A stretch of 35,353 bases of DNA from the UHGV virus genome UHGV-0105470, one strand, 5' to 3'. Origin of the DNA: a virus. Of this stretch, positions 12,004 to 34,258 are shown in pieces (position 1 is the first letter of the stretch; the number at the start of each line of letters is the position of its first letter). The position numbers and the translations under genes were made by a program. The notes under the pieces were generated by a model. The model saw only the letters and a program-made list of their open reading frames with translations, searched no databases and was not told where the DNA came from.

Positions 12004-13620
12004 TCAACGTCTAAGCCCCTCATATGGGTTCCCTCTCACTAAGTCTGTGTGAGCGCCCATTGATGGTGGCTTGAATAATTTAACTTCGTTAAGACTGTTG
12101 AAAGCATCACTGGTAGCATCCACTTGGTCATCTTTAGTTTTACCATCACCACAAAAGCCTTCAAGTTCTTGGAAGTAAGCTTCGTTCCAACTACCTCTCA
12201 AGACTTTTACAAGTCCAGCTTCAGAAGCAGCAGAAAACCCCGCAAATCGGGTAACTTTATCTTTATTTGTTGGTTTAGCTCTTGCTCGATAACCTTTCTC
12301 GGCAAGTTTCCTGATGAGGGATGTTGCGTAGGATTTACCAGCAGCGCCTGGGTCTTGAGGGATAAAAATACCAGTTCGCTTACCGTCACTTTCAGCAGTC
12401 AAATTAATTTGTGTTTCGACTCCAGAGGGTCTATCTCTAAATCTTACTACATCAATGATATAATAGCAACCGTCTTTTTTAGATTTACCCATCTTAACAC
12501 CTGCTGTCCAGTCTGGATTAGGGTTAATCTCAGATGGTAAAGTTGCTGCTAAGTCCCATGCTCTGACATCGAATACATCCTCTGGGAGTGAATCAACAAT
12601 TTCACACCATTGTCTTTGCCAATAGTTTGAACCTTCTGCACGAGCCTTCCAGTTACCGAAACGAAGTCTTGCAACGTTTACAGGAGTGTTGTTTTCCAAC
12701 TTACCACGATATTTAGGTTCTAAGAAGTCAAGAATTGGGTTATCATCAATCGTACCAGAGATGAATGTATATGTTTGAGGAATCTCAAGAGGAAACATTT
12801 CGAGAATCTTGTCTCTCTCCCAATCAGAAACCATAACACCATCATTCATTACATACCAACGAATACGACCACATTTTTCAGAGTCTGGGTAACCTTCTTC
12901 ATCTAAGAATGGTTCTACCCAATCGTAAATAAAGTGGTCTCTGTCTGGGTTCATAGAAATCTTCATGTATGAATCACCTTCAGCCCCAGAACGTAAACGA
13001 GTCTGTAGGTATGAAATCTGTGAAGCAGAGAAGTGCGTACCTTCGTCAAAGTAAATAGCTGAGTATTCAATACCCTGATGACCTTCAGCGTGCTTTTCAA
13101 GTTCTAGATAGGTAAACTTGATAGTTGCCCCAGAAGGGAATGTGATAGTCATCTTCTGCTCGTGAGGAACCCCACCAAACTTACCAAATAGTTTCTTTGC
13201 AGCAGGCCACAAACCACCTTGTAACTGTGTTGTATTTCGACGGAAATAGACAGCATTATAGTTAGGGTCATCAATAAACCTTAAAGAGTCCATTAACAAT
13301 GCAGCCGTCTTACCAGCACCAGCAGCACCACCATAGAGAACCAAGTCGGCATTAGTATTTAAAAAGACCTCTTGAGAACCCGGCTGAGGGGCTACATAGT
13401 TCTTATCAGTCATTAATTTGAAGATAAGTCTAACTTGGTCTGGTGTGTATCTTAATAAAGTCAGAATTTGAGTTGGAAGGAATTTAGAGGGGTCTTTACC
13501 GAATGATTTGATAATTTCTTTTACTTCATCAGAAAGCCCCAACTCTCCAGCTAGGACTTTCCTAACATCTTCCACTCGCTTCTGCTTAACAGCATTTAAG
13601 TCCATTAAGCACCTCCGCAA
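12004..13620 (-). CDS. terminase large subunit
   Basis: 538-aa ORF with Walker A-like GGAAGAGKT near N-terminus, followed by portal gene. Confidence 0.8.
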   Translation of the reverse strand: MRRCLMDLNAVKQKRVEDVRKVLAGELGLSDEVKEIIKSFGKDPSKFLPTQILTLLRYTPDQVRLIFKLMTDKNYVAPQPGSQEVFLNTNADLVLYGGAAGAGKTAALLMDSLRFIDDPNYNAVYFRRNTTQLQGGLWPAAKKLFGKFGGVPHEQKMTITFPSGATIKFTYLELEKHAEGHQGIEYSAIYFDEGTHFSASQISYLQTRLRSGAEGDSYMKISMNPDRDHFIYDWVEPFLDEEGYPDSEKCGRIRWYVMNDGVMVSDWERDKILEMFPLEIPQTYTFISGTIDDNPILDFLEPKYRGKLENNTPVNVARLRFGNWKARAEGSNYWQRQWCEIVDSLPEDVFDVRAWDLAATLPSEINPNPDWTAGVKMGKSKKDGCYYIIDVVRFRDRPSGVETQINLTAESDGKRTGIFIPQDPGAAGKSYATSLIRKLAEKGYRARAKPTNKDKVTRFAGFSAASEAGLVKVLRGSWNEAYFQELEGFCGDGKTKDDQVDATSDAFNSLNEVKLFKPPSMGAHTDLVRGNPYEGLRR

Positions 13621-13827: not shown

Positions 13828-13863
13828 TATGTTTTCTCCAAATAGTTAACCACGTTTCCCCTT

Positions 13864-14125: not shown

Positions 14126-14129
14126 AAAT

Positions 14130-14222: not shown

Positions 14223-14223
14223 A

Positions 14224-14958: not shown

Positions 14959-14974
14959 TAAGCACCTTTGAAAT

Positions 14975-15051: not shown

Positions 15052-15056
15052 TAAAT

Positions 15057-15132
15057 TGGGGTGACCTACGGGATTTGAACCCGTATAGACCATGTTCACA
15101 GCATGGGTCATTACCTTTTATGATAAGGCCAC
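15057..15132 (-). tRNA. tRNA-His (GTG)
   Basis: D-stem TCAT/ATGA, anticodon stem CCATG/CATGG with loop CTGTGAA, C73 discriminator, CCA encoded. Confidence 0.85.
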
Positions 15133-15163
15133 ATTTAAGGACTCTCGTAAGAACCCTTAGAAG

Positions 15164-15239
15164 TGGCAGCGGCATAAGGATTTGAACCTTAATAAGACAG
15201 CTTCAGAGACTGTTGCATTGCCAGTTATGCTATACCGCT
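15164..15239 (-). tRNA. tRNA-Gln (CTG)
   Basis: D-stem GCAT/ATGC, anticodon loop CTCTGAA, T-arm TAAGG-TTCAAAT-CCTTA, G73. Confidence 0.8.
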
Positions 15240-15244
15240 AAATT

Positions 15245-15323
15245 TGGTACTCCATATCGGATTCGAACCGATACATAACACAGATTTTAAGTCTGGCCTC
15301 TCTGCCAATTGGAGTAATGGAGC
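15245..15323 (-). tRNA. tRNA-Leu (TAA)-like, atypical class-I architecture
   Basis: 79 nt; acceptor GCTCCAT/ATGGAGT; anticodon stem CCAGA/TCTGT with loop CTTAAAA; variable loop only 7 nt; A73; T-arm ATCGG-TTCGAAT-CCGAT. Confidence 0.55.
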
Positions 15324-15325
15324 AT

Positions 15326-15401
15326 TGGCGGGGGATGTTGGAATTGAACCAACTTCTTCGATTTCAAAGACCGAGGTTTTAACCTTGTAAACTAATCCCC
15401 T
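15326..15401 (-). tRNA. tRNA-Gln (TTG)
   Basis: Acceptor AGGGGAT/ATCCCCC with 1-72 mismatch, D-stem GTTT/AAAC, anticodon stem TCGGT/ATCGA with loop CTTTGAA, G73. Confidence 0.8.
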
Positions 15402-15409
15402 TTAAATCT

Positions 15410-15967
15410 TTACTTTCTTAGTGGATGAATAAAGAATGCCAACATAACTCTTTCCCTTGAGAATGCTCTTTCTTCTGGGACAACACTTTTAAGTTTCCAC
15501 CCAACATAAATTCTCCAGTAGAATTGCTTACCAAAGACTTTAATTGACGGGATAAAAGCGAATAATCCCCAAGCATTACTGTTCCACATTAGGAGATAAC
15601 CTGTCTGATTATCTTCAGGGTTAGAACTTACATTGATATTACCTTTCCACTTAGTAACATCTTTTACATCTCTTCCTAACACATGGTAAGAGAAGTTATA
15701 AGCTTTGTTTCTCCAGAGCCAACCAACTCTCTGCATATAGACACCAAGCTTACCAATCTTTCTAATCTTAGCCCATCGTTCGACATGACCTTTATCACCA
15801 TCAATTGGGTTGTCATATGTCTCCATCCATCTGAATCCAAAAGGGAGATGTCCTTTCTTCTCACTGTAGAATGGAACTACGAAAGGTGCTAAGATAACTG
15901 CTAAGATTGCTGCAAATGGCTCTAACAAAGCTAAGAAAATCCATGAAGCATACTTCAAATATCTCAT
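15410..15967 (-). CDS. hypothetical membrane protein embedded in tRNA array
   Basis: 185-aa ORF with hydrophobic N-terminus (WIFLALLEPFAAILAVILAPFVVPF); flanked by tRNA genes. Confidence 0.55.
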   Translation of the reverse strand: MRYLKYASWIFLALLEPFAAILAVILAPFVVPFYSEKKGHLPFGFRWMETYDNPIDGDKGHVERWAKIRKIGKLGVYMQRVGWLWRNKAYNFSYHVLGRDVKDVTKWKGNINVSSNPEDNQTGYLLMWNSNAWGLFAFIPSIKVFGKQFYWRIYVGWKLKSVVPEERAFSRERVMLAFFIHPLRK

Positions 15968-15986
15968 CTAAATAGCCTCTTTAAAT

Positions 15987-16062
15987 TGGCGCAGGATAAG
16001 GGATTCGAACCCCTATTAACAGCTTCGTAGACTGTTGCTCTATCCATTTGAACTAATCCTGC
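15987..16062 (-). tRNA. tRNA-Arg (ACG)
   Basis: Acceptor GCAGGAT/ATCCTGC, anticodon stem ACAGT/GCTGT with loop CTACGAA, T-loop TTCGAAT. Confidence 0.85.
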
Positions 16063-16067
16063 AAAAC

Positions 16068-16145
16068 TGGTGTTCCAAGACGGATTCGAACCGTCACTAA
16101 TACAAGGTTTGAGCTTGCATCCTCTGCCAATTGGGATACTGGAAC
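16068..16145 (-). tRNA. tRNA-Leu (CAA)-like, atypical class-I architecture
   Basis: 78 nt; acceptor GTTCCAG/TTGGAAC; anticodon stem GCAAG/CTTGT with loop CTCAAAC; 6-nt variable loop; A73; shares AATTGGCAG D-loop with 15245-15323. Confidence 0.55.
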
Positions 16146-16146
16146 A

Positions 16147-16222
16147 TGGTACTCACTAAAGGACTTGAACCTTTTTTCTTCATCTTGTAAGGGTGATGTT
16201 TTACCATATAAACTAAGCGAGT
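16147..16222 (-). tRNA. tRNA-Val (TAC)
   Basis: Acceptor ACTCGCT/AGTGAGT, D-stem GTTT/AAAC, anticodon loop CTTACAA, T-arm AAAGG-TTCAAGT-CCTTT. Confidence 0.85.
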
Positions 16223-16318
16223 ATGAAAGAGGTCTGAAGTTGTGCCGCTAACTCAACTCCGTGGAATTTGTTATGGTCTTCAGTTGACTCAAAGCGGTCT
16301 TTCACTTGACCTCTAAAT

Positions 16319-16394
16319 TGGTGCTCCCACAAGGATTCGAACCCTGATAAGTTGCTTACAAGGCAACCGTAATAGCCAATTATACGATAGGAGC
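16319..16394 (-). tRNA. tRNA-Thr (TGT)
   Basis: Acceptor GCTCCTA/TGGGAGC, anticodon stem GTTGC/GCAAC with loop CTTGTAA, T-loop TTCGAAT. Confidence 0.85.
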
Positions 16395-16401
16395 ATTAAT
16401 T

Positions 16402-16476
16402 TGGAGCATCCAGAGGGAATCGAACCCTCAACCTCAGTTTGGAAGACTGTAATTTTCCCGTTTAAACTATGGATGC
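16402..16476 (-). tRNA. tRNA-Gly (TCC)
   Basis: Acceptor GCATCCA/TGGATGC, anticodon loop CTTCCAA, T-arm GAGGG-TTCGATT-CCCTC. Confidence 0.8.
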
Positions 16477-16482
16477 ACTAAT

Positions 16483-16558
16483 TGGTGGAGTCACTGAGAA
16501 TTGAACTCAGTTCCCAAGTTTGCAAAACTCGAATTTTAACCATATAAACTATGACCCC
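16483..16558 (-). tRNA. tRNA-Ala (TGC)
   Basis: G3-U70 wobble in acceptor (Ala identity element), anticodon loop TTTGCAA, T-arm CTGAG-TTCAATT-CTCAG. Confidence 0.85.
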
Positions 16559-16564
16559 ATTGCT

Positions 16565-16640
16565 TGGTACAGGTGGAGGGAATTGAACCCATCGTCTTAC
16601 TGATTAAGAGTCAGCCGCATAACCATTTTGCTACACCTGC
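16565..16640 (-). tRNA. tRNA-Lys (CTT)
   Basis: Acceptor GCAGGTG/CACCTGT, anticodon stem GCTGA/TCAGT with loop CTCTTAA; T-stem only 3 clean bp. Confidence 0.7.
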
Positions 16641-16647
16641 ATTAATT

Positions 16648-16725
16648 TGGTAGGAGACAAGGGATTCGAACCCTCAAACACCAACTTCTAAGGATGGTAG
16701 GTTTACCAATTACCGTCAATCTCCC
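16648..16725 (-). tRNA. tRNA-Leu (TAG)-like, atypical class-I architecture
   Basis: 78 nt; acceptor GGGAGAT/GTCTCCT (two G-U); anticodon stem CCATC/GTTGG with loop CTTAGAA; 5-nt variable loop; A73. Confidence 0.5.
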
Positions 16726-16977
16726 ATTAAATCTTTTTAGAGAACTTCTAAGAACCTAAGCAACAAGGTTCCACAACAAGCTGTAATAACCTTAGAAGCC
16801 CTCTAAAAAGACCTAATTTGGTCTTTGCATAGTCTTGTTTAATCCGGTGACTAGAACCTTTGGAGAGCTTGATATATCTCTTCTCCGTGACACCTACTAG
16901 GTGCTTTATCAGTGTACGACAATACACGAGGGATAAACCGAAAATGCGAGCAAGCATGGACGGTGTAAATCTTATTA

Positions 16978-17067
16978 GGCGGTAAGTAAAGGAGTCGAAC
17001 CCTCACCGTATCTCTACAGTGGCAACAGTTTTCAAGACTGTTTGGCTGCCATTAGCCGCTACCTACC
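16978..17067 (-). tRNA. tRNA-Ser (TGA), class II
   Basis: 90 nt; acceptor GGTAGGT/ACTTACC; anticodon stem ACAGT/ACTGT with loop CTTGAAA; long variable arm; T-loop TTCGACT; 3' CCA not fully encoded. Confidence 0.8.
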
Positions 17068-17080
17068 CCTAATAAGATTT

Positions 17081-17163
17081 TGGCATGGGACGGAGGAGTT
17101 GAACCCCTTTGAAACGGTTTTGGAGGCCGTTGCTCATGCCTTAGAGTCTTAACATCGTCCCAT
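17081..17163 (-). tRNA. tRNA-Trp (CCA)-like, atypical 83 nt
   Basis: Acceptor ATGGGAC/GTCCCAT, Trp-type anticodon loop CTCCAAA, T-loop TTCAACT, G73 CCA; 5' half about 7 nt longer than canonical. Confidence 0.5.
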
Positions 17164-17305
17164 ACTGTAATTCGAAGCTTACCGTATTTTCACAACACTG
17201 TAAAGCCCCTTCTCAGATTATTTACATGTTCTGGAAAACATGAGATACAGACCACCTCCTTACACGGAGACCCGATAAGGTCGTCTAAGCAATCTGCTAA
17301 CTATT

Positions 17306-17382
17306 TGGCACACCCTACAGGATTCGAACCTGTAACTCAATGATTAGAAGTCATTTGCTCTGTCCAGTTGAACTAAGGGTGC
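17306..17382 (-). tRNA. tRNA-Arg (TCT)
   Basis: Acceptor GCACCCT/AGGGTGT, D-stem GTTC/GAGC, anticodon stem AATGA/TCATT with loop CTTCTAA. Confidence 0.85.
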
Positions 17383-17629
17383 ATTAATCTTTAAAAACTC
17401 TCTTAGAAAGCCCTTAAAGATGCCCACCTTATTAATCATACCGTGGGCTAGTACGCCAAATTCTTTGATGAGGGATTGGAAGACCTCACTGGTGTTTAGC
17501 CTATCAAGCTACTGCCAGAAAAACATTGTCGTTTGCATTTATTTTAAATTTGCAAAATAGACGCTACGCAACGAAAACTAAGGTTACTATAAAGTGGTCA
17601 CATCTAAATGTCAACAACTTTATTGAAAT

Positions 17630-17705
17630 TGGTACTGGTAGGTGGAATCGAACCACCGATGTTCCCTTATCAGGGGAGTGTTATAACCTTCTTAACTATA
17701 CCAGC
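17630..17705 (-). tRNA. tRNA-Ile (GAT)
   Basis: Acceptor GCTGGTA/TACCAGT, anticodon loop CTGATAA, T-arm GGTGG-TTCGATT-CCACC. Confidence 0.85.
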
Positions 17706-17706
17706 T

Positions 17707-17782
17707 TGGAGGTTCAGATGGGATTCGAACCCACATTCATAGGGCTTATGAGACCCTTGCATTACCTTATCTGCGACTGAAC
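17707..17782 (-). tRNA. tRNA-Met (CAT); elongator, initiator or Ile2 not distinguishable
   Basis: Acceptor GGTTCAG/CTGAACC, anticodon stem AGGGT/GCCCT with loop CTCATAA. Confidence 0.8.
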
Positions 17783-17787
17783 CATAT

Positions 17788-17863
17788 TGGTAGAAGTGGA
17801 GGGATTCGAACCCATCGCCTGTCAGATTAAAAGTCTGCCGCATCACCATTCTGCTACACTTCC
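17788..17863 (-). tRNA. tRNA-Lys (TTT)
   Basis: Acceptor GGAAGTG/CACTTCT, anticodon loop CTTTTAA; paralogous in sequence to the Lys (CTT) gene. Confidence 0.8.
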
Positions 17864-17869
17864 ATTAAA

Positions 17870-18009
17870 TTATCTTTGTAGATAAGCTACCCAGACTTGC
17901 TTAAGGTCTGTAGCGATGTGCCTTGTTGGGTTTAAATCTAGAATTTACCCTTTCACCCTTTGTGGTCGCATACTCACAGGTAAGCTTAATAACTTATCTA
18001 CAAAGATAA
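17870..18009. repeat. 16-17 bp inverted repeat pair (ttatctttgtagataag / cttatctacaaagataa) flanking about 105 bp
   Basis: Exact reverse-complement 16-mers at about 17870-17886 and 17993-18009 inside the tRNA array spacer. Confidence 0.6.
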
Positions 18010-18060
18010 TTACCAGACCGTTGTTTATCATCTTAAGTGCTACCATTACACCAACTCGAC

Positions 18061-18140
18061 ATCTGCCGAGTGAAGGAATCGAACCTTCGCCTTTTCTTTA
18101 CCGGAGAAATAGATTGTTTAAGTTTTGCTGTAAACGGTCT
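18061..18140 (-). pseudogene. tRNA remnant (intact T-arm, no pairing acceptor stem)
   Basis: T-arm GAAGG-TTCGATT-CCTTC and stem-loop TTTCT-CCGGTAA-AGAAA, but no 5' strand complementary to ACTCGGC and C at loop position 33. Confidence 0.35.
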
Positions 18141-18154
18141 TCTGTAAATTTGTT

Positions 18155-18235
18155 GAGCCAGACCAAGTTTTAAATTTTCAAAATTAAATTGGCTTTAAAT
18201 TTTAAGTAACTTGCTGAATTTGGTCTTCTGCTCCT
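18155..18235 (-). ncRNA. conserved spacer stem element in tRNA array (one of four copies)
   Basis: CCAGACC(R) ... (Y)GGTCTTCTG ends with compensatory R/Y covariation across copies at 18011-18145, 18155-18235, 18558-18625, 18714-18796. Confidence 0.4.
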
Positions 18236-18291
18236 TTAAAGAATACTCGTAAGAACCCTTTAAGGGAGGGGCTAAATAGCCCTCTCAAAAT

Positions 18292-18368
18292 TGGCGGTTA
18301 CGATGAGACTTGAACTCACATCATCTCCCGTGACAGGGGAGTATTTTATCCAGTTAAACTACATAACC
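18292..18368 (-). tRNA. tRNA-Asp (GTC)
   Basis: Acceptor GGTTATG/CGTAACC, anticodon stem CTCCC/GGGAG with loop CTGTCAC, T-loop TTCAAGT. Confidence 0.85.
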
Positions 18369-18374
18369 TTTATT

Positions 18375-18462
18375 TGGTGTGCCGTGTAGGAGTCGAACCT
18401 ACCGAGTCTCAATGACAAGGGATTTACAGTCCCCACCGCTACCATCTACGGGATAACGACAC
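18375..18462 (-). tRNA. tRNA-Tyr (GTA), class II
   Basis: 88 nt; acceptor GTGTCGT/ACGGCAC; anticodon stem GGGGA/TCCCT with loop CTGTAAA; long variable arm; T-arm GTAGG-TTCGACT-CCTAC. Confidence 0.8.
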
Positions 18463-18471
18463 ATTTAAATT

Positions 18472-18548
18472 TGGCGGTTAGTCAGGGATTCGAACCCTGT
18501 GCCATTCGCTTAACAGGCGACCGCACATACCTTATGTGCTTCCTAACC
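18472..18548 (-). tRNA. tRNA-Asn (GTT)
   Basis: D-stem GCAC/GTGC, anticodon loop CTGTTAA, T-arm CAGGG-TTCGAAT-CCCTG. Confidence 0.8.
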
Positions 18549-18628
18549 TTAATATATTGCCAGACCGTGTTTTTTTTTCTTTTATCCGCAAAAAGTAGTT
18601 TATTGCTGCATACGGTCTTCTGCAAAAT

Positions 18629-18705
18629 TGGAGGCGGGTGCAGGAGTCGAACCTGCCGATGCCATGCTAATGAGACATGTGAGACGCCCTTTCTCTATAC
18701 CCGCA
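18629..18705 (-). tRNA. tRNA with CAT anticodon (Met or Ile2), second copy
   Basis: Anticodon stem CATGT/GCATG with loop CTCATTA (pyrimidine at 37), T-arm GCAGG-TTCGACT-CCTGC, 1-72 mismatch. Confidence 0.6.
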
Positions 18706-18796
18706 ATTCTTAATGACCAGACCAAATCTCTTCTTTGTCCGATTTAGCTTCAGATGAATAAGATTAAGTTTGCTGTAATTGGTCTTCTGTCAAAAC

Positions 18797-18874
18797 TGGC
18801 GTTCCAGAAGGGATTTTAACCCTCAAATATCCACTTTGAAAGAGTGGTGACTATACCATTTTGTCTACTGGAAC
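18797..18874 (-). tRNA. tRNA-Glu (TTC)
   Basis: Acceptor GTTCCAG/CTGGAAC, anticodon stem CCACT/AGTGG with loop CTTTCAA; unusual T-loop TTAAAAT (A at position 56). Confidence 0.75.
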
Positions 18875-18881
18875 ATTAATT

Positions 18882-18958
18882 TGGTCTCTGTTGGAGGACT
18901 TGAACCTCCGGCCTTACCGCCCCAAACGGAACACTCTACCAAGCTGAGCTAAACAGAG
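18882..18958 (-). tRNA. tRNA-Pro (TGG)
   Basis: C1-G72 acceptor CTCTGTT/AACAGAG, D-stem GCTC/GAGT, anticodon loop TTTGGGG, T-arm GGAGG-TTCAAGT-CCTCC. Confidence 0.85.
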
Positions 18959-19123: not shown

Positions 19124-20538
19124 TTACCAGATATAACGGTCAACCATTACTGCTTTGAGCATTACGCTGATTGGGTCAAACTTCTCACCACCAAGCAGAG
19201 CTTTTAAAGTGGCTGGAGAGAACCCTGATACCATCGCTACACCATTATCCTTAACAGATACTTCGCAAGTACCATTACGGTTTGCTAAGTACCAGAATAC
19301 TAGTTGTGGCATTTCGTATCCAGCTTTTTTGTACTTACTCTGAATTGCTTCAAAGTTTGTACGACCATTTGCACCATCAACCTGATTAAACTCCATATCA
19401 GAGAAGATAATAAGCTTACTTGGCATATCTTTCTGAGTCAAGTTGTTTCTCTTACCTATCTCAAGAATACGGTCAAAGCTGCTTGTAAGTTAGTTGAACC
19501 ATATTCAACATGACGCATTACCTGACGATGACGGTTTCGTAAATCACCACTCAGTTCAATGAAATGAGGGTTTGTTGAATAGACCATTAACTCATCTTTA
19601 AAGCAACCTGTATTGCGTTCTGCTACATACAAGGCAAGTGATACACCAATATCAAGGGCAGTGATTGAACCAAGATTCACCCAAGACATTGAGCTTGAAA
19701 CATCAGTCATACACAAGATGTTCTCACCTTCTGCCATCCAGTTTGGTAGTGCTTTCCACTGCTCATTAGCAACATCTGCATTACCATGCTTGATAGACTT
19801 AATCACATCGTATGGGTAGACAGCACCAGCATTAATCTTAGCCTCACCTTTTGATAAGGACTCAATGTAAGCTTTGTAGCGTTCTCCATCTTTGCGGTTA
19901 AAGAGCTTTTGGTAACGTGCAGCAGCAAGAGACGGAATCTTACTGTAATCAATCTTACCAAACTCATTAGCAGAGATTTTTTGCTCAACCGTATCAGACA
20001 GTGCAGATAACAGTGTGCGGTATTCTTTCTCGCTTAAGTTTGCAAACTTACAGAAACGTTTTACAAACTGTTTGTGTCGTGGTTTTACTCGTGGTAACCA
20101 CTTGGCTGCTAAACCTGCTGTCTCAGGGTCTAGTAATGCTGCTTCTAAATGCTTAAAGGCATCTGTCTCAAAACGAGTACCTACGAAGATTTTGAAGTCA
20201 TCAAAACGACCAAGTTCTGCAATCTTATCCATAATACGAAGAAACTGTGTAGGCTCTAAAACTTTATCTTCGATTGCTTGAAGTAAAACAGTTCTGAAGG
20301 CTTTACGCTCACCCATACCTTCTCGTACATCTCGCATGTGAAGCAAAATACGAACTGCAACATCAACATCCTCACGCAAAGCTTTGTAGAACAAGTCTGG
20401 TAAGATTTCTACATTGCTACGGCTTGAACCAGCAGCTTTGTAAAAGTCCACAAGAGCAGACATTGATGAAGTATGGTTTACAGCACCATTTTCAGTTCGA
20501 CCTGCATGAAGGTGCGCATGTTTAAATAATTCGCTCAT
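19124..20538 (-). pseudogene. vWA-domain protein gene (Ro60/TROVE-like?) interrupted by a frameshift
   Basis: ORF 19456..20538 carries MIDAS motif DVSSS and ends ...GSTNLQAALTVFLR*; ORF 19124..19441 in a different frame carries the downstream vWA motif LIIFSDMEF; the two frames overlap at 19456-19492. Confidence 0.6.
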
Positions 20539-20619: not shown

Positions 20620-20991
20620 TTATTTTTTGAGAGTCGCTACAGCAGAGAACGTTGGTTTGTTATCTGTCTGTGGTTGACCACCATTATCAGGAGTCTTCTT
20701 AGTGTCTGCTGCAAGTGCTTTCATCTCACCTGCTGAGTGAGTAAAGATAGTTTTACCGACCTCAATCATACTCTTGATGGTTACATCGTCTGTGTTTAAC
20801 CCGAACTCTGCAAGCTTAGCAGCATCCCTTGTAACAATCGCCTCAAACAGCTTTGCAGCAAACTCAGCAGAATTATCAATGGTCAGTTGAGCTTTTACGA
20901 GTGAGCTTTTGTTACGAGAGCCTTTTGGTCTTCCAGATGGGTTTCCAGATTGGCCTTTTTTAAACTGGCCTTTGTTTGTTCTGTTTTTCAT
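20620..20991 (-). CDS. hypothetical basic protein with N-terminal GNPxGRPKG motif
   Basis: 123-aa ORF; N-terminus NKGQFKKGQSGNPSGRPKGSRNK is a motif recurrent in small phage DNA-binding/packaging-associated proteins (recalled, not searched). Confidence 0.55.
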   Translation of the reverse strand: MKNRTNKGQFKKGQSGNPSGRPKGSRNKSSLVKAQLTIDNSAEFAAKLFEAIVTRDAAKLAEFGLNTDDVTIKSMIEVGKTIFTHSAGEMKALAADTKKTPDNGGQPQTDNKPTFSAVATLKK

Positions 20992-28306: not shown

Positions 28307-28855
28307 ATGAAAAAAGATAACTTAAAAGAAGTTGAAGGCAACTACCTAGTCCTTGACTGGAATGATATTCGGGAAGCACTCTCCGAAGAAAGCCTTGACA
28401 TACTAGAGCAACTTATCTTCTCAGTACGTCATACCAGAGGTATTGTAAACGGTAAAGAGCCATTAGAAGGAATCTTTGTAGAGAAGTCTTATCCGTTCTA
28501 TGAAGACACTTTGCAGAAAGTTAAAATGTACTTTAGACAGAAGAACCGTAAAGTGGTCACTATGGTGTCTCTTGGTGGTCAGAGCATGTCTGTGATGGAA
28601 GATATCAACCCTAAGAGACCGAGTAAAGGTGTTTGTATAAAAATCACAGGGCATGAAGAGTACATCTCAGTGGATGACTTTAGTGCATTCTGTAATGGTT
28701 CTGCTGTATTTAATGGGTTCCACTATGATATCCGAGTGTACCCAATCAAGGGAGATGATATCATGATGCAGATATTCGATAACAACAATGGATTCACTCA
28801 TTTTTATCAGACAACCAAGTCATCACTGAAGACAGTTCTGGAAACACTGATTTAA
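28307..28855 (+). CDS. hypothetical protein
   Basis: ATG at 28307 (MKKDNLKEV...) preferred over ORF-track start 28262, which overlaps the upstream gene. Confidence 0.55.
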   Translation: MKKDNLKEVEGNYLVLDWNDIREALSEESLDILEQLIFSVRHTRGIVNGKEPLEGIFVEKSYPFYEDTLQKVKMYFRQKNRKVVTMVSLGGQSMSVMEDINPKRPSKGVCIKITGHEEYISVDDFSAFCNGSAVFNGFHYDIRVYPIKGDDIMMQIFDNNNGFTHFYQTTKSSLKTVLETLI

Positions 28856-28865
28856 AATATCTTAA

Positions 28866-28890
28866 GAGCCTCCTTAATTGGGGGCTTTTT
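28866..28890 (+). terminator. rho-independent terminator ending the plus-strand block
   Basis: AGCCTCC-ttaatt-GGGGGCT hairpin followed by T5. Confidence 0.6.
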
Positions 28891-28949
28891 AATTTTTATA
28901 AAATTTTATCGGTTGTTCCAACCTCTGGGTCACCATCATATGTGAATAA

Positions 28950-29760
28950 AATATCTACCCTTCTTAACATCCTTCTTAAGCTTACTCTCTATATATAGTT
29001 ATATAGTACTATATAGTATCTTAGTATCTATCTAGTGGTCTTAATAGCCCCTCTGTATAGCCCTTCTAAACACTCTTCTAACAAGCCTTCTTAACAGCCT
29101 ATACAATCACCTTAACCATCTCTCTATACCCTCTTAGAAGCCCCTATACACCTCTTAATCTTTAGGTTATCTGTGTTACTTAACAGTAACCCATTATGTC
29201 AACTATGTTACCCTCTATAGGTGTTCACTAGGTATTACTAAGCCTCTATATAGACTGTTTTAACAAACTTAACAGGAATATCTTTACAGACCTTATCTCA
29301 CAAGGTCTAACACGGTAATAACAAGGTATCTTATAAGCCTGTTTATGCCTGTATTTTTAAAAGACTGTCTAGGTAATTATTCAGAATTTTAAAATTTTTA
29401 TAAAAATAGGACTATCAAGTCATTTTTTAGGGTCTTTGAAGGAACTCAAAAATATCTGTAGAAGATGTATATCTGCTTGGTAGCCCTTAACACCCCTGTA
29501 ACATCCCCTTTGCAGAATTTTAAAATATCCTTAACAATCTCTTAACAGCTACTACATCTTCTTAACATCTCTTCAGAGGTCTTAACAGATTCTTAACAGG
29601 ACTAACAAGGGCTTAACAAGTTCTTAACAGTCGATACATGGTCTTTATAGTCTCTTAACAGATGACTAACAAGAGCTAACAAGTTAATTTTTAAGAGTTA
29701 TTTTGTTAAGATAATTAACAAGTTCCTAACAAGTGTCTAATCTTTTAACAAGCTATTAAC
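28950..29760. repeat. iteron-like array of short direct repeats (CTTAACAG / CTAACAAG / TTAACAAG family)
   Basis: More than 20 copies of an 8-9 bp motif, many at about 10-11 bp spacing (densest 29530-29760); an AT-rich TATATAGT triple repeat at about 28984-29010; no ORF of 60 aa or more across 28856-30477. Confidence 0.7.
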
Positions 29761-29779
29761 ACGGTCACTATCTCTTTCT

Positions 29780-30440
29780 TATCGTTCCCTTTCCCTCTTA
29801 GTGACTCTTTAAACATACCTCTTAAAAGTTCTCTATAGCTCCTTGTAAGCTCTTTTAAGCCTCTTCCTAGTATCTACCACTCAACTGTATGGATAGCTCT
29901 TTATAGGGCTTTACAGGAGCTTTTAAGGCTATGTCAAAGGCTCTTACAAGGTTTTTACGTGGTATTAACAGAGATTTAACAAGGGGCTAACAAGTGCCTT
30001 AAAAGTGTAACTATGTAGGGATTGTTAAGAAATTGTTAAGGGGGCTAGTATTTACGTAACTTTTAAACCACTTTGAAGCAACTTTATAGCCCCTATAACA
30101 TACTTTTAAGACACTAACAAGCCATTTATAGATATTCACAAGGAACTAACGAGATGATAAAGCTTACACCCTTATAAGATTCTTTTAAGCCTCTATAAAG
30201 CCCTGTAAAGAGCTTTTTAAGGTGAGTTAATGCAATCCCTTAAGTTAGGTTGATAAGGCTGTTATAGAGCTTTATAGAGCGTTTAAATGGGCCATCCCCT
30301 TTTCTGGGGTTATTGGCTTATATTTAAGTTGATTTGATAAAAGGTTATAGAGTAAGCTATAGAGTTATTGCTTTTTAAGGTCTTGTAAGATTCTGGAAAG
30401 GAAAGGGAAAGGGTTGTATAGGATTCAATAAGACGTAAAA
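29780..30440. repeat. large imperfect palindrome rich in CTTNNAAG and CTCTATAG-type motifs
   Basis: ccctttccct...ctctatagc near 29786-29840 mirrors gctatagag...gggaaaggg near 30385-30415; many motifs occur in both orientations. Confidence 0.6.
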
Positions 30441-30477
30441 AAGCCCCTATGAAAAGGAGCTTTGAAGGTATCTGGGG

Positions 30478-30612
30478 CTATTTAGCCCCGTTTTCTGATT
30501 TGGTGATTGTTGCAAAATGTACACCATTACAACGAAATTCATAGGTGTCTTTAACAGGCTTTGACATAACACTATTTGAACGAATGAAGTTGATAGCTTT
30601 GAACTTGTTCAT
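30478..30612 (-). CDS. possible small ORF (44 aa) downstream of cassette 1
   Basis: ATG at 30610-30612 directly follows the conserved leader/SD; followed by GGGGCTA-tt-TAGCCCC hairpin. Confidence 0.4.
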   Translation of the reverse strand: MNKFKAINFIRSNSVMSKPVKDTYEFRCNGVHFATITKSENGAK

Positions 30613-30700
30613 TTTTTGAATCTCCTAGTTTAAGGACTTTACTTAGTGGGGAGGTTATCCCTCCCGTTGATTAGTAATTTACTTGTTTTGATATCTGATT
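30613..30700 (-). promoter_or_regulatory. promoter-leader cassette 1 (variant A)
   Basis: Minus strand: TTGCAA-N17-TAAATT, GC-rich hairpin, conserved leader CCACTAAGTAAAGTCCTTAAACTAGGAGATTCAAAAAATG. Confidence 0.6.
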
Positions 30701-30833
30701 GCAAGCAATTTTTTAAGTTTATCTATAAAGAATCTTTTAAGTTAATCCCTTTTAGATAAACCCCCTCGAACAAAGTTACCAATGTCAAGGGGCATTGTCA
30801 ACACTTTTTTAAAAGTTTTTTGTAAGTTATTGA

Positions 30834-31175
30834 TTAACTGATGAATATTTTTTCAGGTTTTACATAGCTGATACGCTGACTTTTTAGCAAGTCATCCCAG
30901 ATTATTGCCGCAATATGAGAATAACCAGACTCACGCAAGAGCTTCATTGCTTTACATCTCGTTTCAAATCTGGTTGCGTAGTACTCACTATTCAAAACAG
31001 TTTTCTTCCCTTCGTTATCTGTATGGATAATCTGCATTACTTGAAAGGGGCTGACATCCTCGCCTTTGTTCCATTGCTCAAAGTATTTTAGGCACTGCAT
31101 AGGTGACATCTTATCGCTTACTTGAGTTGACCAAGATGCGCCAGCTTTATCGGTAATTACGGTTACATAAGCCAT
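30834..31175 (-). CDS. hypothetical protein
   Basis: 113-aa ORF; ATG at 31175 directly follows cassette 2. Confidence 0.6.
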   Translation of the reverse strand: MAYVTVITDKAGASWSTQVSDKMSPMQCLKYFEQWNKGEDVSPFQVMQIIHTDNEGKKTVLNSEYYATRFETRCKAMKLLRESGYSHIAAIIWDDLLKSQRISYVKPEKIFIS

Positions 31176-31262
31176 TTTTGAATCTCCAGTTTAGGATTTT
31201 ATTTAGTGGGGAAGGTCATCCCCTCCCCGTTGATTGACAATTTACAGATTTTTATCAGGCTT
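31176..31262 (-). promoter_or_regulatory. promoter-leader cassette 2 (variant A)
   Basis: TAGACA-N17-TAAATT, hairpin GGGGAGGGGATGACCTTCCCC, conserved leader with GGAG. Confidence 0.6.
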
Positions 31263-31264
31263 GT

Positions 31265-31498
31265 CTAGTCTTTTTCAATGATAATTTCATACTGACCATC
31301 TACACTGTCAAAATAGATACCGTCTTCATCTTCTGTCTTAAAGTAACACTGAATATCATCACTTGCGGGATAGTCTTGTCTCGCTATCTGGCAAACTTGA
31401 ATAGCATTTTCTTTACTTCCTGTAAACTCTTCAAGCCCTTTAAAATCGCATGAATGACCATTACATATAGAAAGGATAAGATAAATGGTTGTAAGCAT
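31265..31498 (-). CDS. hypothetical small secreted/lipoprotein-like protein
   Basis: 77-aa ORF; hydrophobic N-terminus MLTTIYLILSICNG with Cys; own upstream hairpin CCCCT-aca-AGGGG, no shared cassette. Confidence 0.5.
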   Translation of the reverse strand: MLTTIYLILSICNGHSCDFKGLEEFTGSKENAIQVCQIARQDYPASDDIQCYFKTEDEDGIYFDSVDGQYEIIIEKD

Positions 31499-31564: not shown

Positions 31565-32107
31565 TTAGAAAAAGCTCTTTAAATCCTCTTCTGCGATGTT
31601 TCCTGTTAGTGTATCCATGATGTCACAAAAAACCTGAATACTGTCCGATTGTTGAACACTTTTAGCAAGTAGTTCTAATGTCTCATCAAGATAATTCATA
31701 TTTGGGTTATCCAGTGAAGGAAGACAAAAAGGCGAATACATAGCATTAAATTCAGTGATGTAAACCTTTTTAATCCAATTTAAATCGAAATATTCTGTAA
31801 AACTTGCCACGCTCGACATATTATCACAAGAATAATCATCGTTTAGCTCATCTTCTGGAGTCTCAAGTTCCAAGATAACAATGTTTTGAGTTTTCATCTG
31901 AAAAGCTGCGGTAATAGTGGCATTGCCCAGAGCCTGTTGGATACCTTCAGAGACTATTCCTTCCTCATCGTCACCATAGATTTTATTTTCTGGATAAACG
32001 TAAAAATTTCCATCCATATCCGAACAATTCCATGCGCCTGATGGTTTATCACCGTTATTAATCAGGTTGATAAAGTTTTCTTGAGTAGTACCGTGAAAGC
32101 ATTTCAT
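31565..32107 (-). CDS. hypothetical protein with N-terminal MKCFHGT motif (ADP-ribosyltransferase/KptA-like fold is a weak guess)
   Basis: 180-aa ORF; ATG at 32107 follows cassette 3; acidic C-terminal half. Confidence 0.55.
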   Translation of the reverse strand: MKCFHGTTQENFINLINNGDKPSGAWNCSDMDGNFYVYPENKIYGDDEEGIVSEGIQQALGNATITAAFQMKTQNIVILELETPEDELNDDYSCDNMSSVASFTEYFDLNWIKKVYITEFNAMYSPFCLPSLDNPNMNYLDETLELLAKSVQQSDSIQVFCDIMDTLTGNIAEEDLKSFF

Positions 32108-32199
32108 TTTAGAATCTCCTAGTTTAAGGACTTTATTTAGTGGTAAAGCTCTTTATCTGGGGCTTAAGATATCAACTTTTAAGCCCCTTGTAAAGTACT
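32108..32199 (-). promoter_or_regulatory. promoter-leader cassette 3 (variant B, palindrome brackets -10)
   Basis: Minus strand: TTTACA-N17-TATCTT with inverted repeat GGGGCTTAA-N11-TTAAGCCCC spanning spacer and -10; conserved leader follows. Confidence 0.55.
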
Positions 32200-32403
32200 T
32201 TATCGGTTATTTTTGACAACTTTTAAAACTGCAAGATAACCTAAGCAATAAGAGTCACCGAAGAGAGTTCTACCCATGAAAGAATCCTCTTTGATATCCT
32301 TTGCAGTGACAGTTTTTTCTACGCCGTGAAAAAGAACTATATCGCCAACTTTGATATCTTTGATATGAGTAGTTTCAATGTTTAAACCGTTAATAATAGC
32401 CAT
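32200..32403 (-). CDS. hypothetical protein
   Basis: 67-aa ORF; ATG at 32403 follows cassette 4. Confidence 0.55.
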   Translation of the reverse strand: MAIINGLNIETTHIKDIKVGDIVLFHGVEKTVTAKDIKEDSFMGRTLFGDSYCLGYLAVLKVVKNNR

Positions 32404-32506
32404 TTTAGAATCTCCTAGTTTAAGGACTTTGTTTAGTGGGGAAGTTCATTCCCTCCCCGTTGATTAGTAATTTACTTGTTTTAAAAACCAAAATCAAGAA
32501 AAATTT
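32404..32506 (-). promoter_or_regulatory. promoter-leader cassette 4 (variant A)
   Basis: TTGATT-N17-TAAATT, hairpin GGGGAGGGAATGAACTTCCCC, conserved leader. Confidence 0.6.
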
Positions 32507-33300: not shown

Positions 33301-33453
33301 TGACAGTTCACTAATTAAGACATCAAAGATTATATCATTATCTGCTACAGTTGCAACACCAGTGATATAATCAATTTCTAAGATAACAACAACTTTCGTA
33401 CATAAACCGTCATCTATATCATTCCAGACAACTTTATCACCTGCACAAAACAT
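33295..33453 (-). CDS. possible small ORF (52 aa)
   Basis: ATG at 33451-33453 follows cassette 7; below ORF-track size cut-off. Confidence 0.45.
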   Translation of the reverse strand: MFCAGDKVVWNDIDDGLCTKVVVILEIDYITGVATVADNDIIFDVLISELSK

Positions 33454-33544
33454 TTTTAGAATCTCCTAGTTTAAGGACTTTATTTAGTGGGGAAGGTCAT
33501 CCCCTCCCCGTTGATGTGTAATTTAACCTATCTAAAAATCAGTG
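33454..33544 (-). promoter_or_regulatory. promoter-leader cassette 7 (variant A)
   Basis: Perfect TTGACA-N17-TAAATT, hairpin GGGGAGGGGATGACCTTCCCC, conserved leader. Confidence 0.65.
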
Positions 33545-33877: not shown

Positions 33878-34167
33878 GGTGTTTCCTCTTTACGTGATAC
33901 TTTGCCATTTACAGTTATCTCATAGGATTCTAATAAATCGCTTTTAGACTTTACAGGACTTTTAAAAGTATCATCATAAACATTAATTTGCAATACAGGC
34001 TTTTTATACTCCCTGCAACTATTCCATAAGCAAATCACTACACGACGGCCTTTTATTTTGCCGTGTAACCATTCCATAACATCATGACTATTCCTTGATG
34101 TCTCTATAAAATCAATTTTGTTGAGTAATTTGCTAAGGTTTTCCCTAACTTTATTTGATAATTTCAT
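33871..34167 (-). CDS. hypothetical protein
   Basis: 98-aa ORF; ATG at 34167 follows cassette 8. Confidence 0.6.
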   Translation of the reverse strand: MKLSNKVRENLSKLLNKIDFIETSRNSHDVMEWLHGKIKGRRVVICLWNSCREYKKPVLQINVYDDTFKSPVKSKSDLLESYEITVNGKVSRKEETPC

Positions 34168-34258
34168 TTTTGAATCTCCTAGTTTAAGGGTTAATTTGAT
34201 AAAGCTCTTTATCTGGGGCTATCATATCCGCTTGTTAGCCCCGTGTAAAGAAATCTAT
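34168..34258 (-). promoter_or_regulatory. promoter-leader cassette 8 (variant B)
   Basis: TTTACA-N17-TATGAT bracketed by GGGGCTA...TAGCCCC; conserved leader. Confidence 0.55.

What the first reader, a model, noticed from the sequence alone, without database searches (positions are those of the whole stretch)
28856..30477. 1.6-kb ORF-free region with phased iteron-like repeats and a large imperfect palindrome
No ORF of 60 aa or more on either strand, unusual for a phage. 28950-29760 carries more than 20 copies of CTTAACAG / CTAACAAG / TTAACAAG, many about 10-11 bp apart (densest at 29530-29760), plus a TATATAGT triple repeat near 28984-29010. 29780-30440 is an imperfect palindrome (ccctttccct...ctctatagc mirrored by gctatagag...gggaaaggg) dense in CTTNNAAG-type motifs in both orientations. 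The region lies where the plus-strand block and the minus-strand small-gene array converge. This architecture fits an iteron-type replication origin, a packaging or terminal-repeat region, or a binding array for a phage DNA-binding protein.
Basis: partly seen in the sequence, partly recalled or inferred. Interest (0 to 1): 0.75.

Follow-up and report, generated by a model that had tools for sequence, protein, structure and literature searches.

The report
Phage genome ends and packaging region
This gene-free 1.6-kb stretch is where the linear genome of a Felix O1-type phage begins and ends (a roughly 570-bp repeat present at both ends of the packaged DNA), and its short motifs, spaced one per helical turn, are most likely docking sites for the DNA-packaging machinery; the genome-end location is already known for this phage group, but I found no published description of the motif architecture.

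Summary
The window is a Felixounavirus (Felix O1-like myovirus). There is no ORF of 50 aa or more in 28856-30477. There are 36 TAACA/TGTTA cores against about 5 expected. Periodicity of 10-11 bp is very strong (autocorrelation z=11.4 at lag 11; controls reach at most 4.1). The TATATAGT repeat is real. The "large palindrome" is weaker, because a direct-orientation control scores almost as high.

The region is the concatemer junction, meaning the physical genome ends. Three relatives deposited with repeated ends (581, 592 and 613 bp; PhageTerm for two) have identical boundary sequences. These map to window 29479 and 30045, giving a 567-bp direct terminal repeat (DTR). Erwinia phage M7 has a 444-bp DTR at the homologous place. 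The published Bal31/SpeI end fragments of UAB_Phi87 fit this locus and not its GenBank record ends. Both boundaries are among the most conserved blocks across three genera. Motif cores are conserved while their spacers drift.

The closest analogue is the T7 junction, with CCTAAAG arrays in and around its 160-bp repeat.

Inferred, not shown: the phased A/T-core arrays recruit terminase, possibly through a DUF5681 protein (20620-20991) that has an AT-hook-like arm and sits directly upstream of the large terminase gene in unrelated contigs. An iteron origin is not supported but not excluded. Interest is modest.

The parts
28856..29478 (.). Unique non-coding flank on one side of the terminal repeat. 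It holds scattered TAACA units and highly conserved blocks at 29236-29260 and 29292-29343.
28864..28889 (+). Terminator hairpin that ends the plus-strand gene block (Felix O1 ORF40-24 homologues).
   Evidence: It is an inverted copy of the hairpin at 30438-30471 (I3).
28984..29036 (.). TATATAGT tandem repeat (period 8-9 / 18).
   Evidence: 98.5% conserved across 11 genomes.
29377..29408 (.). Conserved A+T-rich block (TTCAGAATTTTAAAATTTTTATAAAAAT), about 70 bp outside the repeat boundary.
   Evidence: (I19/I20, D12)
29464..29492 (.). Boundary element 1, GATGTATATCTGCTT|GGTAGCCCTTAACA. The inferred end of virion DNA lies between 29478 and 29479.
   Evidence: The boundary sequence is identical in three records deposited with repeated ends. 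Conservation is 0.996. It is invariant in three genera.
29479..30045 (.). Direct terminal repeat (567 bp here). It is present once in this window and would be present at both ends of packaged DNA.
   Evidence: with mapping to the window. DTR lengths in relatives are 581, 592 and 613 bp, 614 bp predicted for UAB_Phi87 (608 published), and 444 bp in M7.
29529..29770 (+). Dense array of about 18 (C)TTAACA(R) units, nearly all in + orientation, mostly 9-12 bp apart.
   Evidence: (D1-D3). Cores are 0.986 conserved against 0.836 for spacers.
29800..29950 (.). Array of CTnnnnAG-type units (CTTAAAAG, CTCTATAG, CTTGTAAG, CTTTTAAG, CTTTATAG, CTTTACAG) at 10-11 bp spacing.
   Evidence: strongest periodicity in the whole window
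29963..30045 (.). Three + TAACA units at 29966/29977/29988, then two inverted units (TGTTAAG at 30023 and 30034) and GGGGGC at the repeat end.
30023..30060 (.). Boundary element 2, TGTTAAGGGGGC|TAGTATTTACGTAA. The inferred end lies between 30045 and 30046. Read on the other strand it is GCCCCCTTAACA..., an inverted copy of element 1. The palindrome TTACGTAA lies at 30052-30059.
   Evidence: (0.989)
30046..30477 (.). [quoted passage not shown] It holds 10-11-bp units in both orientations and terminator-like hairpins at 30438-30471 and 30473-30490.
20620..20991 (-). Candidate small terminase / recognition protein (123 aa, DUF5681). It has an N-terminal AT-hook-like arm, NPSGRPKGSRNK, followed by two long helices. 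This assignment is inferred, not shown.
12004..13620 (-). Large terminase subunit, the enzyme expected to cut at the two boundaries.

Best explanation
The region is the concatemer junction of a Felix O1-type phage. Packaged DNA starts and ends here. Window 29479-30045 (567 bp) is the short exact direct terminal repeat (DTR), and 28856-29478 and 30046-30477 are the unique non-coding flanks.

Shown (in relatives, by homology):
- The virion DNA ends fall at two sites that are invariant across genera. The two sites are inverted copies of one element, GCCC(CC)TTAACA-N5/6-TAACA-(A)TCCC, pointing into the repeat.

Established for this packaging class (PMC5557969):
- Replication produces head-to-tail concatemers with one repeat copy per junction.
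- Terminase makes staggered nicks at the two boundaries, and 3' extension duplicates the repeat, so that every packaged genome carries it at both ends.

Inferred:
- Because the boundary elements are inverted, one strand-specific nicking complex bound in opposite orientations would nick opposite strands.
- The arrays of short A/T-core units, spaced once per helical turn (TTAACA in the left 60% of the repeat; CTnnnnAG types in the right part and the right flank), put successive minor grooves on one face of the DNA. They would act as a multivalent landing pad that marks phage DNA for the packaging machinery.
- A plausible reader of the arrays is the DUF5681 protein at 20620-20991. It has a flexible N-terminal AT-hook-like arm (GRPKGSRNK) and a helical-hairpin core, and its family occupies the small-terminase position in unrelated phage contigs.
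For: - The window is a Felixounavirus. The region equals the Felix O1 ORF23-ORF24 intergenic gap, 1622 bp in both.
- Records of vB_EcoM_D4 (581 bp), Ro111lw (613 bp) and ECP2307 (592 bp) have 100% identical repeated ends with the same boundary sequences. I14.1 and ZX4221 open at the same base.
- PhageTerm reports a 613-bp DTR for Ro111lw (PMC6454146) and a 581-bp DTR for Pr103Blw (PMC8303462). It reports DTRs for the six coliphages of the announcement that includes D4 and I14.1, without giving lengths (PMC11737134). PhageTerm writes out genomes opened at the termini with the repeats added (PMC5557969).
- Erwinia phage M7 (Kolesnikvirus) has a 444-bp repeat at the homologous site.
- UAB_Phi87: the boundary sequences predict a DTR at 15152-15765 (614 bp; 608 published). 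They predict terminal SpeI fragments of 2751 and 4431 bp; the Bal31-sensitive fragments reported are 2819 and 4322 bp. The GenBank record ends would give 1134 bp and more than 5600 bp (PMC4837284).
- Both boundaries are among the most conserved 25-mers of the region (0.996 and 0.989). TAACA cores are conserved at 0.986 against 0.836 for spacers; in Mooglevirus and Suspvirus alone the figures are 0.938 against 0.642 (permutation p=2e-4).
- Helical phasing.
- Inverted terminal elements.
- The T7 junction has 13 CCTAAAG copies in and around its 160-bp repeat.
- DUF5681: Pfam E=2e-14. G20, R21 and P22 are invariant. The motif matches HMG-I/Y AT-hook 2 in 8 of 9 positions. The gene sits directly upstream of, and overlaps, the large terminase gene in 2 of 3 unrelated contexts.
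Against: - No reads or virion DNA exist for this isolate, so the ends are placed by homology only.
- The UAB_Phi87 fragment sizes differ from prediction by 68 and 109 bp, and that GenBank record itself is opened elsewhere, with a 542-bp overlap in the tRNA cluster.
- Nothing shows that any protein binds the arrays.
- The small-terminase assignment of DUF5681 is weak. The fold search found nothing. PHROGs lists its families as unknown function, with one member weakly hitting a small-terminase family at E=0.009. The AT-hook match is not statistically significant (E=0.3). The gene lies 7 kb from the large terminase gene in this phage. Unrelated DUF5681 contigs show no phased arrays within 5 kb of the gene.
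- The function of the analogous T7 arrays is, to my knowledge, unresolved.
Confidence: 0.8

Rival explanations
1. Iteron-type replication origin. The direct repeats would bind a phage initiator, the A+T-rich blocks (29377-29408, 29513-29528) would unwind, and replication would start here, possibly in addition to the terminal-repeat role.
For: There are many direct repeats in one orientation phased with the helix. Conserved A+T-rich blocks lie next to them. One perfect DnaA box lies at 28941-28949 in a conserved block. No origin has been mapped for this phage group in the papers read.
Against: The units are 10-11 bp with a 5-8-bp core, not 17-22-bp iterons. None of the neighbouring genes scanned matches a protein family of known function. 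DnaA boxes are not enriched: 3 in the region against about 2 expected, and 41 in the window against 47.8 in shuffles. GC skew tracks gene orientation, and the region is a transcription-convergence point. The conservation pattern is already explained by the mapped genome ends.
Confidence: 0.12
2. End-handling array unrelated to terminase. The phased units would bind a phage or host protein that protects or tethers the incoming DNA ends (against RecBCD), controls ejection, or promotes repeat-repeat pairing to form concatemers.
For: The arrays occupy the first roughly 300 bp of one virion end and flank the other. Cores are conserved. There is no excess of promoters and no RNA family match, so a DNA-level role is likely.
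Against: No candidate end-binding protein was identified. The host IHF consensus is absent from the region. The inverted boundary elements share the same TTAACA unit as the arrays, which ties the arrays to the cutting sites.
Confidence: 0.15
3. Non-functional low-complexity DNA. Slippage-generated 11-bp satellite sequence would be tolerated in the only gene-free gap, with only the two cut sites under selection.
For: Repeat length varies by whole units and small insertions between relatives (567-614 bp). The region is less conserved (88-90%) than the coding flanks (95-96%).
Against: Motif cores are much more conserved than spacers, even between genera at 77% identity. The same architecture, with different flank motifs, persists in Erwinia phage M7, where sequence similarity is almost gone.
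Confidence: 0.08
4. The region encodes non-coding RNAs or a hidden, unusually started or spliced gene.
For: Some GenBank records annotate tiny hypothetical ORFs here.
Against: There is no Rfam match better than E=0.047, and all matches are far below the gathering scores. Promoter-like sites are not enriched, 10 against 6.9 +/- 2.5. The ORFs inside are 42 aa or shorter, and the relatives differ from the window by many insertions and deletions across the region.
Confidence: 0.03

Closest known systems
Concatemer junction of phage T7/T3 (160-bp or 231-bp exact direct terminal repeat with arrays of the CCTAAAG repeat)
   Same: It is a short, exact, non-permuted terminal repeat in a gene-free junction between converging or terminal transcription units. 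A short motif is repeated many times in one orientation inside and next to the repeat. I checked this on NC_001604: 13 CCTAAAG copies, with regular spacing in the flank array. The repeat is generated by staggered nicks plus 3' extension (PMC5557969).
   Different: The repeat is 567 bp rather than 160 bp. Unit spacing is about 10.6-11 bp (one helical turn) rather than 13 bp. The motif differs (TTAACA / CTnnnnAG). The two boundaries are inverted copies of one element. The phage is a myovirus with a T4-type large terminase (Terminase_6N/6C), no phage RNA polymerase (PMC3185647) and no annotated small terminase.
Terminal repeats already reported for Felixounavirus and relatives (UAB_Phi87 608 bp, Ro111lw 613 bp, Pr103Blw 581 bp, M7 444 bp)
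   Same: It is the same locus. The boundary sequences are identical or near-identical to those in the window.
   Different: The window's copy is 567 bp because it lacks one GTTAAGAAA unit and some spacers. The papers I read give lengths only; they do not describe the phased arrays or the inverted boundary elements (PMC4837284, PMC6454146, PMC8303462, PMC3185647).
Small-terminase recognition sites next to the cut site (lambda cosB R-sites with IHF; SPP1 pacL/pacR boxes) - comparison from my own knowledge
   Same: Several copies of a short element lie beside the terminase cleavage site. Helical phasing or bending is thought to let an oligomeric small terminase engage many sites at once.
   Different: Those systems make cohesive ends or headful cuts, not exact repeats. 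They have 3-7 sites rather than more than 30. No IHF consensus is present here. The cognate protein here is only a candidate.
Iteron origins and the plasmid R1 parC centromere (ten 11-bp repeats bound by ParR) - comparison from my own knowledge
   Same: They are direct repeats phased with the helical turn that assemble a cooperative nucleoprotein filament or ring.
   Different: No initiator or ParR/ParM-type genes were found. The locus coincides with the genome ends. Iterons are typically 17-22 bp.

Membership tests
Short exact direct-terminal-repeat (T7-type) genome ends | Virion DNA has fixed, non-permuted ends at this locus | tested here: met
   Met by homology only. The ends of D4, Ro111lw, ECP2307, I14.1, ZX4221 and M7 map here. 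The UAB_Phi87 Bal31/SpeI fragments fit this locus and not the record ends. No reads are available for this isolate.
Short exact direct-terminal-repeat (T7-type) genome ends | The same sequence of some hundreds of bp is present at both ends of the packaged molecule | not testable with these tools
   The window carries one copy, as any assembly that collapses the repeat would. Relatives' records carry 444-613 bp twice at 100% identity.
Short exact direct-terminal-repeat (T7-type) genome ends | Cut sites are specific sequences, conserved among relatives | tested here: met
   The boundaries are identical in three records, invariant in an 11-genome alignment across three genera, and among the most conserved 25-mers.
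Short exact direct-terminal-repeat (T7-type) genome ends | Twofold read coverage and read-start peaks at the two boundaries | not testable with these tools
   This needs sequencing reads of this phage. It is reported by PhageTerm for relatives (PMC6454146, PMC8303462, PMC11737134).
Iteron-type replication origin | Several 17-22-bp direct repeats that bind a Rep initiator | tested here: not met
   The repeat unit is 10-11 bp with a 5-8-bp conserved core.
Iteron-type replication origin | Initiator gene adjacent to, or overlapping, the iterons | tested here: inconclusive
   Flanking genes match only families of unknown function. Absence of annotation is not absence of function.
Iteron-type replication origin | A+T-rich unwinding element and host-factor sites (DnaA, IHF) | tested here: inconclusive
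   A+T-rich conserved blocks are present. DnaA boxes are not enriched. No IHF consensus lies in the region.
Iteron-type replication origin | Origin activity (replication bubbles, copy-number peak) | not testable with these tools
   This needs experiments.
Small-terminase recognition array (pac/cosB-like) | Multiple copies of a recognition element next to the terminase cut site | tested here: met
   TTAACA units begin 6-8 bp inside each boundary and continue as arrays. Cores are conserved and spacers are not.
Small-terminase recognition array (pac/cosB-like) | A cognate small terminase that binds the element | tested here: inconclusive
   The candidate is a DUF5681 protein. Synteny with the large terminase gene holds in 2 of 3 unrelated contexts, and it has an AT-hook-like arm. 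But there is no fold match, no functional PHROG label, and no binding data.
Structured non-coding RNA | Match to a curated RNA family, or a promoter-terminator unit | tested here: not met
   The best Rfam E-value is 0.047, well below the gathering scores. There is no promoter excess.
Long DNA palindrome / cruciform | Two arms complementary about a single centre, beyond what shared repeat units give | tested here: inconclusive
   The reverse-complement alignment gives z=7.5 against shuffles, but the direct-orientation control scores 35.5 against 44.5. Pair centres scatter over 30038-30100. Arm changes in Felix O1 are not compensated.

The most novel reading that the evidence does not exclude
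The phased A/T-core arrays would be the recognition site of a previously unassigned small-terminase family (DUF5681). This family would read DNA through AT-hook-like arms inserted into successive minor grooves, one per helical turn, rather than through helix-turn-helix domains. This would explain how Felix O1-type phages, described as lacking a small terminase, select their DNA. The inverted boundary elements would direct the opposite-strand nicks that duplicate the repeat.
Probability: 0.25. Interest if true: 0.55.

Novelty: new member of a known kind. Interest (0 to 1): 0.33.

Why it matters
Felix O1-type phages are used for Salmonella diagnostics, biocontrol and therapy. Knowing the exact genome ends and the likely packaging signals matters for several practical tasks: annotating genomes correctly (most GenBank records of this group are opened arbitrarily, and one is opened at a misleading overlap), rebooting synthetic genomes, and building reporter or transducing particles. 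The phased arrays, the inverted boundary elements and the DUF5681 candidate give a concrete and testable handle on how a group said to lack a small terminase recognises its DNA. As a discovery it is modest, because the terminal repeat at this locus is already documented for relatives.

Tried and rejected
- Rfam scan of 28500-30900 at E up to 1: only three weak hits at or beyond the edges of the region.
- Sigma-70 promoter scan: 10 sites against 6.9 +/- 2.5 expected. Most sites are caused by TTAACA resembling TTGACA.
- IHF consensus WATCARNNNNTTR: 5 matches in the window, none in the region. Adjacent units do form TAACARNNNNTTA, 7 of the 8 window matches being in the region, but the T-to-A difference is at a conserved IHF position, so I dropped this idea.
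- DnaA boxes: not enriched.
- First reading of the UAB_Phi87 record placed the ends in the tRNA cluster, at window 15201-15742. I rejected this after the SpeI-fragment test and after finding other records with repeated ends.
- REP10 and KMM2 also open inside the region, but their end overlaps are only 77 and 64 bp. I read these as assembler overlaps, not terminal repeats.
- Genes next to the large terminase (66, 75, 265 and 185 aa) and next to the region: families of unknown function only.
- DUF5681 protein: the AlphaFold model has pLDDT 69; Foldseek against PDB found nothing at E<1; the PDB sequence search gave only the AT-hook peptide; PHROGs gave no functional label.
- Unrelated DUF5681 contigs have no phased arrays within 5 kb of the gene.
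- The Felix O1 genome paper and the BASEL, PhageMaP and Bas63 cryo-EM papers contain no description of this region.
- The papers by Born et al. 2011 (phage M7) and Casjens & Gilcrease 2009 are not held in the library.
Full report
**What the window is.**
BLAST against phage records shows a Felix O1-like myovirus (genus Felixounavirus). Positions 1-25000 are 95-96% identical to many Escherichia and Salmonella phages. The finding region matches 259 records, 209 of them over at least 80% of its length, but at only 88-90% identity. In Felix O1 itself the region is the gap between ORF23 and ORF24 (record 12306-13927), which is also 1622 bp and unannotated. The Felix O1 paper describes four transcription units, and this gap is one of the two points where units converge (PMC3185647).

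**Checking the observation.**
- No ORF of 50 aa or more overlaps 28856-30477. The longest ORF inside is 42 aa.
- The named octamers occur 8, 7 and 4 times, against about 0.1 each expected from the rest of the window, and almost only on the + strand.
- TAACA/TGTTA cores number 36 against 5.2 expected. Twenty-three of them lie within 567 bp. Thirteen of the 35 gaps between successive cores are exactly 11 bp.
- Sequence autocorrelation against dinucleotide shuffles gives z=11.4 at lag 11 and 7.6 at lag 10, with harmonics at 21/22, 31/32 and 42. The highest value in control tiles from the rest of the window is 4.1.
- An A/T-versus-G/C indicator has a spectral peak near 11.1 bp in the repeat and the right flank. 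Its power is 2.0-2.5, against 0.57 +/- 0.26 (maximum 1.16) in controls.
- Tandem Repeats Finder reports many short arrays of period 10-12 and the TATATAGT repeat.
- The large palindrome is overstated. Genuine inverted pairs exist (33 nt at 82%, 27 nt at 70%), and the reverse-complement alignment of the arms beats shuffles. But the same arms aligned in direct orientation score nearly as well (35.5 against 44.5). The pair centres do not coincide. Changes in one arm in Felix O1 are not compensated in the other.

**Where the genome ends are.**
This was the decisive line of evidence, and it began with a conflict.
- The UAB_Phi87 GenBank record has 542 identical bases at its two ends. These map to window 15201-15742, inside the tRNA cluster. 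The paper reports a 608-bp terminal repeat found by Bal31 digestion and run-off sequencing (PMC4837284).
- In contrast, the record of vB_EcoM_D4 begins and ends with 581 identical bases that map inside the finding region. That phage's announcement reports PhageTerm direct terminal repeats (PMC11737134).
- A search with that segment showed that I14.1, ECP2307, ZX4221 and Ro111lw also open at exactly this point, each with a second match in the same record.
- For the four whose ends I fetched (D4, Ro111lw, ECP2307 and the Erwinia phage M7), the two ends are 100% identical over 581, 613, 592 and 444 bp.
- Ro111lw's 613-bp repeat and Pr103Blw's 581-bp repeat are PhageTerm results. PhageTerm writes genomes opened at the termini with the repeat added.
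- The three Felixounavirus records give the same boundary sequences...CTGCTT|GGTAGCCCTTAACA and ...GTTAAGGGGGC|TAGCATTTACGTAA. In the window these place the repeat at 29479-30045, 567 bp.

The UAB_Phi87 conflict resolves in favour of this locus.
- Within the parts of the record I fetched, the only SpeI sites near the homologous locus are at 13014 and 19582.
- The conserved boundary sequences predict a repeat at 15152-15765, which is 614 bp against 608 published.
- They predict terminal SpeI fragments of 2751 and 4431 bp. The Bal31-sensitive fragments reported are 2819 and 4322 bp.
- Ends at the record termini would instead give 1134 bp and more than 5600 bp.
- The agreement is within about 3%, not exact, and I could not explain the residual.

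**Conservation.**
I aligned the region from 11 genomes: eight other Felixounavirus genomes, Citrobacter phage Moogle and phage SUSP1. Identity to the window is 90-93% within the genus and 77% to the other two genera.
- The two boundary blocks are among the most conserved 25-mers (0.996 and 0.989).
- In the dense array at 29529-29770 the TAACA cores are conserved at 0.986 and the remaining positions at 0.836. Using only Moogle and SUSP1 the figures are 0.938 and 0.642 (permutation p=2e-4).
- This is the pattern expected of binding sites separated by unconstrained spacers.
- Repeat length varies through gain or loss of whole units and small insertions.
- In M7, where sequence similarity is almost gone, the same layout persists. 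TTAACA units point inward from one repeat end and TGTTAA units from the other, and a different unit (TTCTAAG) is arrayed in one flank.

**Anatomy of the ends.**
Reading inward from each end, one end starts GGTAGCCCTTAACAcccctGTAACAtcccc. The other end, read on the opposite strand, starts GCCCCCTTAACAatttCTTAACAatccc. The boundaries are thus inverted copies of one element, built from the same unit as the arrays, with the cut positions offset by 2-4 nt. A perfect palindrome, TTACGTAA, lies 6 bp outside one boundary. Terminator-like hairpins close both converging gene blocks (I3, 68).

**How it most likely works.**
- For this packaging class, concatemers carry one repeat per junction, and the repeat is duplicated by extension from staggered nicks (PMC5557969).
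- The inverted boundary elements fit that scheme. One strand-specific nicking complex bound in opposite orientations would nick opposite strands. This step is inference.
- The phased units place short A/T cores (TTAA, TTTTAA, TATA) on one face of the helix about every 11 bp over several hundred base pairs.
- I infer that they form a multivalent landing site for the packaging proteins.
- Felix O1 is described as having only a large terminase. However, the first gene of the late unit (20620-20991, 123 aa) carries DUF5681.
- Its family has an invariant G-R-P within a basic N-terminal arm. The arm reads NPSGRPKGSRNK, which matches the second AT-hook of HMG-I/Y in 8 of 9 positions (E=0.3, so it is only suggestive).
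- The predicted structure is a disordered arm followed by two long helices.
- In two of three unrelated metagenomic contexts, the DUF5681 gene overlaps the start of a large terminase gene, which is the usual small-terminase position.
- This makes it a reasonable candidate reader of the arrays. But the fold search and PHROGs give no support, and no binding has been shown.

**Comparison with known systems.**
I fetched the T7 genome ends. The 160-bp repeat is exact, and CCTAAAG occurs 13 times in one orientation inside and beside it, at a regular 13-bp spacing in the left-flank array. The Felixounavirus junction is the same kind of structure, with several differences: a longer repeat, a different motif, one-turn phasing, and inverted boundary elements.

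Iteron origins, lambda cosB, SPP1 pac and plasmid R1 parC share the principle of phased repeats that assemble a protein complex. The defining features I tested for an origin were not met or were inconclusive: unit length (not met), adjacent initiator, DnaA boxes and IHF sites. GC skew simply follows gene orientation.

**Verdict.**
The region is real and strongly non-random, and it is explained: it is the genome-end and packaging region of a Felix O1-type phage. The terminal repeat at this locus is already documented for relatives, so the finding is a new member of a known kind. What I did not find in the papers read are the helically phased arrays, the inverted boundary elements and the DUF5681 small-terminase candidate. 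These give testable hypotheses of moderate interest.

Noticed in passing
window 15201-15742 (JN225449 record ends): The UAB_Phi87 GenBank record starts and ends with 542 identical bases inside the tRNA gene cluster. This does not fit the paper's own Bal31/SpeI end fragments, so the record appears to be opened at an assembly overlap rather than at the physical ends.
   Followed up: yes
alignment: between window 29463 and 29464 (VpaE1, Moogle); Moogle near 28880; SUSP1 near 30420; Ro111lw after about 29711; VpaE1 near 29797: Two kinds of small hairpin-like insertions appear at different sites in different genomes, as if they were miniature mobile elements. One is about 24 nt (TTGATTCGGTAGAATCTACCTCAT and relatives). 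The other is the mini-palindrome GGGATTGGTAACAATACCAATT, which occurs in both orientations.
   Followed up: no
window 30478-30833: The window lacks homologues of Felix O1 ORF22 and ORF23 (and of mio_3) that lie next to the junction in relatives. In their place is a 44-aa ORF (30478-30612, minus strand) with a GGAG ribosome-binding site.
   Followed up: partly
window about 30613-30719, 31170-31279, 32103-32154, 32393-32482, 33451-33525, 34161-34250: Related 40-110-bp sequences recur in the gaps between the minus-strand small genes. They resemble the repeated intergenic sequences reported between Felix O1 genes 15-21 and may be repeated promoters or translation-start regions.
   Followed up: no
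window 20620-20991 (-): This DUF5681 protein has an N-terminal arm, NPSGRPKGSRNK, nearly identical to an HMGA AT-hook. The family sits directly upstream of large terminase genes in unrelated contigs, so it may be an unrecognised small-terminase family.
   Followed up: partly
window 14050-18958: There is a cluster of 26 tRNA genes on the minus strand, between the large terminase gene and the Ro-like RNA-binding protein gene (19456-20538).
   Followed up: no
GU169904.1 135900-136463 (H68); MG969406.1: The 147-kb record named Staphylococcus phage SA1 contains Felixounavirus sequence at 88% identity to this region. The 109-kb record GE_vB_B3 carries the segment twice. Both look like mixed or mis-assembled records.
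   Followed up: no
window 28941-28949 (-): A perfect DnaA box (TTATTCACA) lies in a conserved block of the left flank. Boxes are not enriched in the region overall.
   Followed up: partly
L013/L014 (REP10) and L015/L016 (KMM2): These two records open inside the repeat region but with only 77-bp and 64-bp end overlaps. The sizes are typical of assembler k-mer overlaps, which suggests assemblies tend to break in this double-coverage, repeat-rich segment.
   Followed up: partly
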